Positions 11,586-11,705 of a DNA stretch of 64,000 nt are shown here, piece by piece. A program made the position numbers and the translations under genes. Numbering within the stretch: position 1 is the first letter of the stretch; each line of letters opens with the position of its first letter. The notes under the pieces were generated by a model that did no database searches, was not told the DNA's origin, and worked only from the letters and a program-made list of their open reading frames with translations. Origin of the DNA: an uncultured Eubacteriales bacterium (lineage in GTDB: Bacteria; Bacillota; Clostridia; TANB77; CAG-508); the NCBI GenBank assembly GCA_949288175.1, contig CASEIV010000004.1, positions 32,023 to 96,022 on the forward strand. Reading direction: 5' to 3'.

Positions 11586-11705
11586 TTAATCTTTTTTTAT
11601 CATGCTTTCTGGCATTTTAGGTTGATGGAATACAAATAACATTAAACAAGATGTATTTGTTACTTTAGCATACTTTTCTGCTACTTTAGATAAAAATTTG
11701 AACAT
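11586..11705 (-). CDS. agrD: AgrD autoinducing-peptide precursor, 39 aa (not in ORF track)
   Basis: MFKFLSKVAEKYAKVTNTSCLMLFVFHQPKMPESMIKKD; AAGGGGG RBS; amphipathic leader, single Cys, HQPKMP tail; directly downstream of agrB. Confidence 0.9.
   Translation of the reverse strand: MFKFLSKVAEKYAKVTNTSCLMLFVFHQPKMPESMIKKD

What the first reader, a model, noticed from the sequence alone, without database searches (positions are those of the whole stretch)
11586..11705. Unannotated AgrD predicting an unusually large (7-residue) autoinducer ring
Seen: TNTS-C-L-M-L-F-V-F-HQPKMP. Established: most clostridial AgrD peptides have Cys plus 4 residues before the (H/Y)(Q/E)P tail, giving 5-residue rings, and some give 6. 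Inference: cyclisation at Cys20-Phe26 would give a 7-residue, wholly hydrophobic thiolactone, or a homodetic cyclopeptide after S-to-N shift: a new signal from an uncultured gut lineage.
Basis: partly seen in the sequence, partly recalled or inferred. Interest (0 to 1): 0.68.

Follow-up and report, generated by a model that had tools for sequence, protein, structure and literature searches.

The report
AgrD pheromone precursor, predicted seven-residue ring
This is a real gene for a small quorum-sensing peptide in an uncultured chicken-gut Clostridia bacterium, and in this bacterial family (at least 75 species) the spacing in the peptide predicts a seven-residue ring, a size not yet reported for such signals, though no chemistry has confirmed it.

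Summary
Window 11586-11705 (-) encodes a 39-aa peptide, MFKFLSKVAEKYAKVTNTSCLMLFVFHQPKMPESMIKKD. It passes NCBIfam's AgrD model and lies 62 nt downstream of an AgrB that keeps the catalytic R/G/H/C spacing. An AgrA/AgrC-like pair converges on it.

Cys-x6-HQPKMP is not peculiar to this genome. It occurs in 75 of 79 AgrDs next to AgrB relatives in gut MAGs (four have x5). In about 110 AgrDs from 301 Clostridia genomes, the only credible AgrDs with that spacing were from the window's own family. Elsewhere about 90 predict 5-rings and 9 predict 6-rings.

Three results favour cleavage at F26|H27, giving cyclo-CLMLFVF:
- The MS-verified 6-ring CWFWSY sits directly before YQRECP in precursors I retrieved.
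- All variation and all indels lie between the invariant Cys and HQP.
- AgrC sensor identity (about 45% against about 92% for the kinase half) tracks ring similarity, including position +6.

A metatranscriptome contig of a relative spans exactly agrBD. Nothing shows the product chemically, so ring size, tail state and lactam rearrangement remain inferred. "Unannotated" is not supported.

Verdict: a predicted new ring-size variant of a well-known system, of moderate interest.

The parts
11586..11705 (-). agrD: 39-aa autoinducing-peptide precursor with a leader (residues 1-19), a variable core (C20-F26) and a tail (H27-D39)
   Evidence: ORF listing. TIGR04223 scores 25.9 bits against a cut-off of 19. 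Conserved after agrB in 78/80 loci. Synonymous variation at invariant residues.
11628..11648 (-). Codons for C20-L-M-L-F-V-F26, the predicted 7-residue macrocycle and the hypervariable window of the family
   Evidence: Entropy is 2.6-3.1 bits at C+1..+3 and 1.6-1.8 bits at C+4..+6; C20 and HQP are fully invariant and the rest of TNT[AS]C and HQPKMP nearly so. Indels occur only here. This window co-varies with the AgrC sensor.
11610..11627 (-). Codons for H27-Q-P-K-M-P32, the invariant start of the C-terminal recognition tail; predicted AgrB cut between F26 and H27
   Evidence: H27, Q28, P29, K30 and P32 are identical in all 73 aligned sequences; position 31 is M in 72 and I in 1. The MS-verified ring CWFWSY precedes YQRECP in retrieved precursors, so the Pro is the 6th tail residue there as here.
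11713..11719 (-). Shine-Dalgarno AGGGGGA of agrD, 7 nt before the ATG
   Evidence: Read from the sequence. In relatives the in-frame read-through of this site gives the conserved 'KGES' just before the Met.
11768..12394 (-). agrB: membrane cysteine peptidase/cyclase. The true start is probably the ATG at 12385, because the GTG at 12394 lies inside the GAGGTG ribosome-binding site.
   Evidence: PF04647 E = 1.4e-39. R72/G77/H79/C86 have the same spacing as S. aureus R70/G75/H77/C84. It is the only intact AgrB in the 98%-complete genome.
11482..11505 (-). Intrinsic terminator of agrBD (10-bp stem, T run). The same palindrome also scores as a terminator-like site on the + strand (11485-11502).
   Evidence: The metatranscriptome contig of a relative ends at 11503.
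10033..11388 (+). agrC-like sensor histidine kinase: polytopic sensor half (about aa 1-225) and HATPase_c_5 kinase half
   Evidence: PF14501 E = 3.6e-16. The staphylococcal AgrC model scores 113 bits, below its equivalog cut-off of 500. The sensor half is about 45% identical and the kinase half 89-96% identical in the closest relatives.
9285..10049 (+). agrA-like response regulator (REC + LytTR). The likely start is the ATG at 9333 (MLNFVICDD), after AAAGGGG.
   Evidence: PF04397 E = 7.2e-21 and PF00072 E = 7.4e-15. 92-98% identical in the 11 closest loci where AgrA is fully covered. Start read from the sequence.

Best explanation
The ORF is the AgrD precursor of a complete agr-type quorum-sensing system: agrBD on the minus strand, converging on agrA-agrC on the plus strand. 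Shown: the gene is real, it is conserved under purifying selection, and it is paired with an AgrB that keeps the catalytic residue spacing. A close relative's agrBD appears as a discrete unit in a chicken-gut metatranscriptome. Inferred mechanism: the amphipathic leader (residues 1-19) docks the peptide on the membrane. AgrB recognises the invariant tail HQPKMP..., cuts between F26 and H27, and transfers the F26 carbonyl to the thiol of C20. This gives a 7-residue thiolactone, C-L-M-L-F-V-F. A leader peptidase then cuts after the conserved TNT[A/S]; it is not MroQ-like, because the genome has no CPBP protease. If, as in the six clostridial AIPs analysed so far, no exocyclic tail is left, the free alpha-amine attacks the thioester (S-to-N acyl shift). 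The secreted signal would then be the homodetic cyclo-heptapeptide cyclo(CLMLFVF), [M+H]+ 854.4303, with a free thiol. The sensor half of AgrC would bind it, and AgrC would phosphorylate the LytTR regulator. The 7-residue spacing is the standard design of this gut Clostridia family. A few close relatives carry 6, and the ring sequence together with the AgrC sensor has diversified into many specificity groups, as in staphylococcal agr groups.
For: Identity:
- TIGR04223 scores above its cut-off.
- AgrB PF04647 E = 1.4e-39, with R72/G77/H79/C86 matching the spacing of S. aureus R70/G75/H77/C84.
- The neighbours are HATPase_c_5 and LytTR proteins.
- 78 of 80 related loci keep agrD after agrB.
- Invariant residues carry synonymous codon variation.

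Cut site:
- S. aureus AgrB cuts M32|D33, and D33/E34 are essential for cleavage. H27/Q28 hold those positions here and are invariant.
- The MS-verified 6-ring Rc-AIP1 CWFWSY lies directly before YQRECP in two retrieved precursors. So with a larger ring the cut still falls immediately before [Y/H]Q and five residues before the invariant Pro.
- All length variation (x6 in 75 loci, x5 in 4, plus a 3-nt deletion in a transcribed relative) falls inside the C...HQP window, while AgrB stays 87-91% identical.

Signal role:
- AgrC sensor identity falls from 0.67 to 0.41 as ring Hamming distance rises from 1 to 6. Kinase identity falls only from 0.86 to 0.72.
- A mismatch at +6 is independently associated with sensor divergence (p about 0.003-0.006).

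Rarity:
- Among about 110 AgrDs from 301 Clostridia genomes, the only credible AgrDs with the 7-spacing are from the window's own family.

Expression:
- An 886-nt metatranscriptome contig of a ~92% relative spans 11503-12390, from just inside the agrB start to the agrBD terminator.

Tail-less lactam:
- All clostridial AIPs detected by Molloy 2021 lacked a tail and had rearranged.
Against: - No mass spectrometry or reporter data exist for any member of this family.
- Positions +4 to +6 are less variable (consensus W-V-F, 1.6-1.8 bits) than +1 to +3, and +5 shows no association with the sensor. Part of that stretch could therefore be a processing determinant rather than signal.
- The co-variation statistics control for phylogeny only through kinase-domain identity.
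- The metatranscriptome contig comes from a 6-spacing relative, and DNA carry-over cannot be excluded.
- The leader peptidase and the N-terminal cut are unknown; no CPBP/MroQ homologue is present.
- Whether AgrB can close a 7-residue thiolactone efficiently is untested.
Confidence: 0.65

Rival explanations
1. The ring is the canonical five residues counted from the Cys (C-L-M-L-F). V25-F26 would then be a two-residue spacer or extra AgrB recognition element in front of HQP, so this family's AgrB would cut two residues further upstream than other AgrBs.
For: Position +4 is W in 51 of 73 sequences, and +5/+6 are semi-conserved V/A/I and F/L/W. A C-terminal Trp is known in the L. plantarum ring CVGIW. 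Position +5 shows no link to AgrC sensor divergence.
Against: The cut would sit 2 residues from HQP in most members but 1 residue from it in the x5 relatives, whose AgrB is 87-91% identical. That is an unlikely slip for a tail-recognising peptidase. The MS-verified 6-ring ends directly at the YQ motif, and S. aureus requires the two residues just after the cut. Position +6 does co-vary with the sensor. In other HQPK[ML]P AgrDs, hydrophobic variable residues directly precede HQP and are taken as the ring end.
Confidence: 0.13
2. The 7-residue thiolactone keeps a short exocyclic tail (for example S- or TS-CLMLFVF). It would then stay a thiolactone, as in staphylococci, and would not become a lactam.
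For: Staphylococcal, C. botulinum, C. difficile and Listeria AIPs are listed with tails. The residues before the Cys (TNT[A/S]) are conserved and could be part of the signal. No N-terminal protease was identified.
Against: All clostridial AIPs actually detected by HRMS lacked a tail. The invariance of TNT fits a protease site better than a specificity determinant, because the neighbouring ring is hypervariable.
Confidence: 0.3
3. The locus is a decaying or non-signalling remnant: AgrD is made but not cyclised, or the system is silent.
For: The organism is uncultured and the genome is small (1.65 Mb). There is no product evidence. The agr system is patchy in the clade: several same-genus and same-family genomes lack an AgrD hit.
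Against: All four genes are intact and the AgrB catalytic residues are kept. AgrD tail and leader are under purifying selection across at least 75 species. Ring and sensor are diversifying together. A relative's agrBD is present in metatranscriptome assemblies.
Confidence: 0.04

Closest known systems
Clostridium acetobutylicum agr (AIP = [CVLVTL], a 6-membered, tail-less ring; agrBD and agrCA as separate operons)
   Same: It is a clostridial agr system split into agrBD plus a separate two-component pair, with a ring larger than 5 and no exotail; the ring size was confirmed by HRMS. From my own recollection, not checked here, its tail reads YEPKMP, close to HQPKMP.
   Different: This peptide has one more residue between the Cys and the tail (7 against 6). 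Here the operons converge tail to tail. The leader (AEKYAK...TNT) is unrelated. The product is untested.
Ruminiclostridium cellulolyticum Rc-AIP1, cyclo(CWFWSY)
   Same: It is an AgrB/AgrD product with an enlarged (6-residue) all-hydrophobic/aromatic ring. It is tail-less, starts as a thiolactone and rearranges by S-to-N acyl shift to a homodetic cyclopeptide. The precursor retrieved here reads ...ACWFWSY|YQRECPKSLLK, so the cut is directly before [Y/H]Q and five residues before the Pro, the same register proposed here.
   Different: The ring has 6 residues, not 7. It comes from a different AgrD subfamily and a cultured soil/compost cellulolytic organism, and it is known to control sporulation.
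Staphylococcus aureus agrBDCA and its specificity groups I-IV
   Same: AgrB shares the catalytic R/G/H/C spacing. The AgrD core and the AgrC sensor are hypervariable while the kinase half and AgrA are conserved.
   Different: S. aureus rings have 5 residues with 2-4-residue exotails. The genes form a single operon with RNAIII. The tail starts DE rather than HQ, and MroQ removes the leader, whereas this genome has no CPBP homologue. The AgrC and AgrA scores here are far below the staphylococcal equivalog cut-offs.
Enterococcus faecalis GBAP (fsrBDCA), a 9-residue lactone ring
   Same: It shows that AgrB-type enzymes can close rings much larger than 5. It is described as the largest AIP macrocycle to date.
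   Different: It uses a Ser lactone and has a 2-residue tail, with a different precursor architecture. Ring sizes 7 and 8 remain undescribed in the literature I could search.

Membership tests
AgrD (cyclic lactone/thiolactone autoinducer precursor, NCBIfam TIGR04223) | Profile match above the curated cut-off | tested here: met
   25.9 bits against a cut-off of 19, E = 8.1e-6, covering residues 2-37. No Pfam family, including Pfam's AgrD model, matched.
AgrD (cyclic lactone/thiolactone autoinducer precursor, NCBIfam TIGR04223) | Small ORF immediately downstream of agrB on the same strand | tested here: met
   agrB 11768-12394 (-) and agrD 11586-11705 (-), with a 62-nt gap and its own SD. The same arrangement occurs in 78/80 related loci.
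AgrD (cyclic lactone/thiolactone autoinducer precursor, NCBIfam TIGR04223) | Three-part build: amphipathic leader, single central Cys/Ser nucleophile, charged C-terminal tail with a conserved Pro | tested here: met
   The leader is MFKFLSKVAEKYAKV, C20 is the only Cys, and the tail is HQPKMPESMIKKD. C20, H27, Q28, P29 and P32 are invariant in 73 sequences. A few relatives have Ser in place of Cys.
AgrD (cyclic lactone/thiolactone autoinducer precursor, NCBIfam TIGR04223) | Canonical spacing: four residues between the nucleophile and the tail (5-residue ring) | tested here: not met
   There are six residues here, and in 75 of 79 family members. About 90 of about 110 other Clostridia AgrDs have four. 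This departs from the usual form but is not a defining requirement, since 6- and 9-rings are accepted members.
AgrD (cyclic lactone/thiolactone autoinducer precursor, NCBIfam TIGR04223) | The product is a macrocyclic (thio)lactone or derived lactam that activates the cognate AgrC | not testable with these tools
   This needs LC-MS of an agrBD expression strain and a reporter assay.
AgrB peptidase/cyclase (Pfam PF04647) | Profile match and residues required for proteolysis (S. aureus R70, G75, H77, C84) | tested here: met
   PF04647 scores 135.8 bits. The motif R72-x4-G77-x-H79-x6-C86 has identical spacing, and the residue roles come from PMC10196373. No solved structure is related by sequence.
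AgrC/AgrA two-component pair | HPK10-type kinase (HATPase_c_5) with a polytopic sensor, plus a REC-LytTR regulator, next to agrBD | tested here: met
   PF14501, PF04397 and PF00072 all match, and the pair is adjacent and convergent. The staphylococcal equivalog models score far below their cut-offs (113/500 and 74/400). The pair is therefore agr-like, not orthologous in the strict sense.
agr specificity-group polymorphism | The AgrD core and AgrC sensor diverge together while the kinase half and AgrA stay conserved | tested here: met
   In the closest relatives with both genes fully covered, the sensor is 44-50% identical, the kinase 89-96% and AgrA 93-98%. Sensor identity rises to 80% where the ring differs by one residue (L017).

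The most novel reading that the evidence does not exclude
A whole family of uncultured gut Clostridia (at least 75 species, from chicken, rabbit, mouse, ruminant and human guts) signals with tail-less 7-residue cyclopeptides. This ring size lies between the known 5/6 and 9. Close relatives switch between 6 and 7 residues, and ring sequences and AgrC sensors form dozens of specificity groups. If so, AgrB ring size is set simply by the Cys-to-tail spacing, and ring length itself acts as a specificity dial.
Probability: 0.5. Interest if true: 0.55.

Novelty: new variant of a known kind. Interest (0 to 1): 0.42.

Why it matters
AIP ring size is usually treated as nearly fixed. In S. aureus, altering it abolishes activity, and only 5, 6 and 9 residues are documented. 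A natural, clade-wide 7-residue class with 6/7 polymorphism between near-identical AgrBs would be a ready-made system for asking how AgrB sets ring size. It would also show how AgrC sensors adapt to ring length. The family would add many predicted cyclic heptapeptides from abundant but uncultured gut bacteria to the list of candidate microbiome signals or agr inhibitors. The system itself is textbook agr, and the claim rests on sequence spacing alone.

Tried and rejected
I used phmmer against the 1.8-billion-protein representative library instead.
- Pfam gave no hit for the peptide.
- No PDB relative of AgrB was found by sequence, so no structure-based reading of the pocket was possible.
- The supplement of the human-microbiome RiPP paper is not held, so I could not check whether its AIP families include this one. 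The Steiner 2012 paper on the C. acetobutylicum AgrD sequence is not held either. The 2013 review text contains no precursor sequences.
- Literature searches for 'seven-membered', 'heptapeptide', 'seven amino acid' and 'HQPKMP' together with agr terms found no report of a 7-residue AIP ring. This is absence in the held library, not proof of absence.
- I considered an upstream in-frame start. The longer ORFs in some relatives merely read through the SD ('KGES'), and the Met of M[FL]KFL is the conserved start.
- I considered a second Cys as the nucleophile. Some relatives have one inside the ring, but only the TNT[AS]C Cys is invariant.
- A CPBP/MroQ leader protease is absent from the genome.
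- Rows of the AgrD survey with apparent spacings of 7 to 12 outside this family (for example L094, L114, L126, L148, L169, L185) were false ORFs or had an ambiguous nucleophile.
LytTR operator repeats were not established.

Full report
**1. What is in the sequence**

Window 11586-11705 on the minus strand is a 39-codon ORF: MFKFLSKVAEKYAKVTNTSCLMLFVFHQPKMPESMIKKD. An AGGGGGA Shine-Dalgarno lies 7 nt before its ATG.

The peptide passes NCBIfam TIGR04223 (AgrD) at 25.9 bits against a cut-off of 19. No Pfam family matched it.

Sixty-two nucleotides upstream on the same strand lies AgrB (11768-12394). It matches PF04647 at E = 1.4e-39. Its motif R72-x4-G77-x-H79-x6-C86 reproduces the spacing of the S. 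aureus residues R70, G75, H77 and C84, which are needed for proteolysis. The GTG listed as the agrB start lies inside the GAGGTG ribosome-binding site, so the ATG at 12385 is the likelier start.

A REC-LytTR regulator (9285-10049) and an AgrC-like kinase (10033-11388) converge from the plus strand. A terminator-like hairpin at 11482-11505 sits between the two units and scores on both strands. The genome is 1.65 Mb and 98% complete, and this is its only intact AgrB.

**2. The gene is real and conserved**

Searching GTDB species genomes with AgrB gave 366 relatives. The best 80 all come from gut MAGs of chicken, rabbit, mouse, buffalo rumen and humans, including Clostridium sp. CAG:440.

Seventy-eight of the 80 loci carry an agrD after agrB. 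In 73 gap-free sequences, M1, K3, L5, K7, A9-Y12, T16, N17, C20, H27-K30, P32, K38 and D39 are invariant. Those invariant residues carry synonymous codon changes, which is the signature of selection on the protein.

phmmer against 1.8 billion cluster representatives found 46 hits. The hits I retrieved (44 of the 46) almost all belong to the same AEKYAK...TNT[AS]C...HQPKMP family. The exact peptide is a called gene in public collections. Together with the NCBIfam hit, this makes 'unannotated' doubtful.

**3. The spacing is a family trait and is rare elsewhere**

Of 79 family AgrDs (78 loci plus the window), 75 have six residues between the Cys and HQP, and four have five: L004, L006, L008 and L014. 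Most cluster representatives also have six. A few have Ser in place of Cys, which predicts a lactone.

For an outside sample I ran TIGR04223 over 301 genomes drawn evenly from the class; 101 had hits. I then read 130 hit regions. About 90 credible AgrDs have the canonical four-residue spacing and nine have five. Among credible AgrDs, six occurred only in genomes of the window's own genus or family: L179, L190, L200 and L211. A same-order, different-family genome has CPVVLF-HQPKAP, with five.

The feature belongs to the lineage, not to this one gene.

**4. Where AgrB probably cuts**

This is the step on which the claim depends, and it is inferred.

(a) In S. aureus the cut is M32|D33, and D33/E34, the first two tail residues, are essential. 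H27/Q28 hold those positions here and never vary.

(b) The key question is whether the cut follows the tail or the Cys when the ring is enlarged. Rc-AIP1 was shown by HRMS/MS to be CWFWSY. I retrieved precursors containing that exact hexapeptide from two genomes of one genus (G285 and G025; I take this genus to be Ruminiclostridium, an unverified guess). They read ...GACWFWSY|YQRECPKSLLK. The ring ends directly before YQ, and the invariant Pro is the sixth tail residue, as P32 would be after an F26|H27 cut.

(c) All substitutional hypervariability and all indels lie between C20 and H27. Relatives with five-residue spacing have AgrB 87-91% identical to the window's. A 'five residues counted from Cys' rule would put the cut two residues from HQP in most members and one residue from it in these relatives.

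(d) The ring window behaves as the specificity determinant. In the closest relatives with both genes fully covered, AgrA is 93-98% identical and the AgrC kinase half 89-96%, but the AgrC sensor half is only 44-50%. Sensor identity rises to 80% for L017 (CLVLFVF, one difference), to 68% for L010 and to 59% for the distant L031.

Over 52-53 taxa, mean sensor identity falls from 0.67 to 0.41 as ring Hamming distance rises from 1 to 6. Kinase identity falls only from 0.86 to 0.72.

In a regression that controls for kinase identity, mismatches at +1 and +4 are strongest (p about 5e-4). Positions +2, +3 and +6 are significant (p 0.003-0.025), and +5 is not.

Position +6 would be the residue whose carbonyl closes the ring. 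Its link to the sensor is modest support that it is part of the signal.

**5. Weaknesses**

Positions +4 to +6 (consensus W-V-F, 1.6-1.8 bits) vary less than +1 to +3 (2.6-3.1 bits). A C-x3-W pentacycle followed by a two-residue spacer is therefore not excluded; I give it about 0.13. The statistics correct for shared ancestry only crudely. No chemistry exists for any member of the family.

**6. N-terminus**

The leader cut is unknown. The genome has no CPBP/MroQ homologue. TNT[A/S] before the Cys is conserved, which suits a protease site.

All clostridial AIPs detected so far lacked an exotail and had rearranged by S-to-N acyl shift to homodetic lactams. By analogy, the mature signal would be cyclo(CLMLFVF) with a free thiol, [M+H]+ 854.4303. 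I rate tail-less against tailed at roughly 55:30.

**7. Expression**

The locus occurs mainly in chicken-gut metagenomes. In one chicken-gut metatranscriptome (X29), an 886-nt contig at about 92% identity covers 11503-12390, running from just inside the agrB start to the predicted terminator. It carries a 3-nt deletion in the ring codons, so it comes from a 6-spacing relative. This fits a discrete agrBD transcript in vivo, though DNA carry-over cannot be ruled out.

**8. Comparison with what is known**

Documented AIP rings have 5 residues (most), 6 (C. acetobutylicum, R. cellulolyticum) and 9 (E. faecalis GBAP, called the largest to date). I found no report of a 7-residue ring or of this tail motif in the held literature.

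The system works like, and by every sequence criterion is, an agr system. It departs from the canonical form only in the Cys-to-tail spacing.

**9. Verdict**

The 7-residue ring is the best-supported reading at about 0.65, and it is a lineage-wide design rather than a one-off. It is a predicted new ring-size variant of a well-known kind. Interest is moderate (0.42) and would rise if LC-MS confirms the ring and the 6/7 polymorphism proves to gate specificity.

Noticed in passing
window 11503-12390: A chicken-gut metatranscriptome (run X29) holds an 886-nt contig, about 92% identical, whose ends coincide with the agrB start and the agrBD terminator. It has a 3-nt deletion in the ring codons, so it comes from a 6-spacing relative. 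Run X26 holds many shorter, diverse pieces of the same unit.
   Followed up: partly
window 12385-12394: The GTG at 12394 listed as the agrB start lies inside the GAGGTG ribosome-binding site, so the ATG at 12385 (MIDTICTF...) is the likelier start. The GTG-started protein is not in the public protein collection, whereas the AgrD is.
   Followed up: partly
window 9039-9050 and 9095-9106: TTCACATTATCT occurs twice, 56 nt apart, upstream of agrA (exact copies only there; 5 hits with one mismatch in the window against 1.7 expected). Upstream of agrB, two TTTTATAAAA(T/G)AAA copies lie about 24 nt apart (12476-12515). These are possible LytTR operator repeats, but the region is very AT-rich and I did not test conservation.
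   Followed up: no
whole genome G000: There is no CPBP/Rce1-like (MroQ-type) protease anywhere in the 98%-complete genome, so AgrD leader removal must use another enzyme. Beyond agrC, three other HATPase_c_5 kinase genes clearly pass the family cut-off, with two further marginal hits.
   Followed up: partly
P0006, P0022, P0030, P0040 (cluster representatives of the family): Some family members have Ser in place of the ring Cys (for example TNTASVILIVLHQP), which predicts 7-residue lactones. Lactones could not undergo the S-to-N shift.
   Followed up: no
L199, L205, L182, L191 (genomes G179, G125, G285; one genus): Paralogous AgrDs read CSASSSTF-[HY]QPKAP, CTACSSTF-YQPKAP and CSACCSSL-YQPKAP. 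The nucleophile is ambiguous, so the ring could be a 4/5-residue Cys or Ser ring or an 8-residue Cys ring.
   Followed up: no
L132, L168: Two TIGR04223 hits (…ALATNGIGYQPEVPESLLK and …ALATNTISYQPEIPESLLK) have no Cys within reach of the tail. One also has no Ser, and the other has a Ser only one residue before the tail. These may be AgrD-like peptides that cannot form the usual ring.
   Followed up: no
G000:C10:50830-51099 (L082): A second, weak AgrB-like stretch in the genome (22 bits, below the cut-off) contains four stop codons. It is probably a decayed agrB remnant.
   Followed up: no
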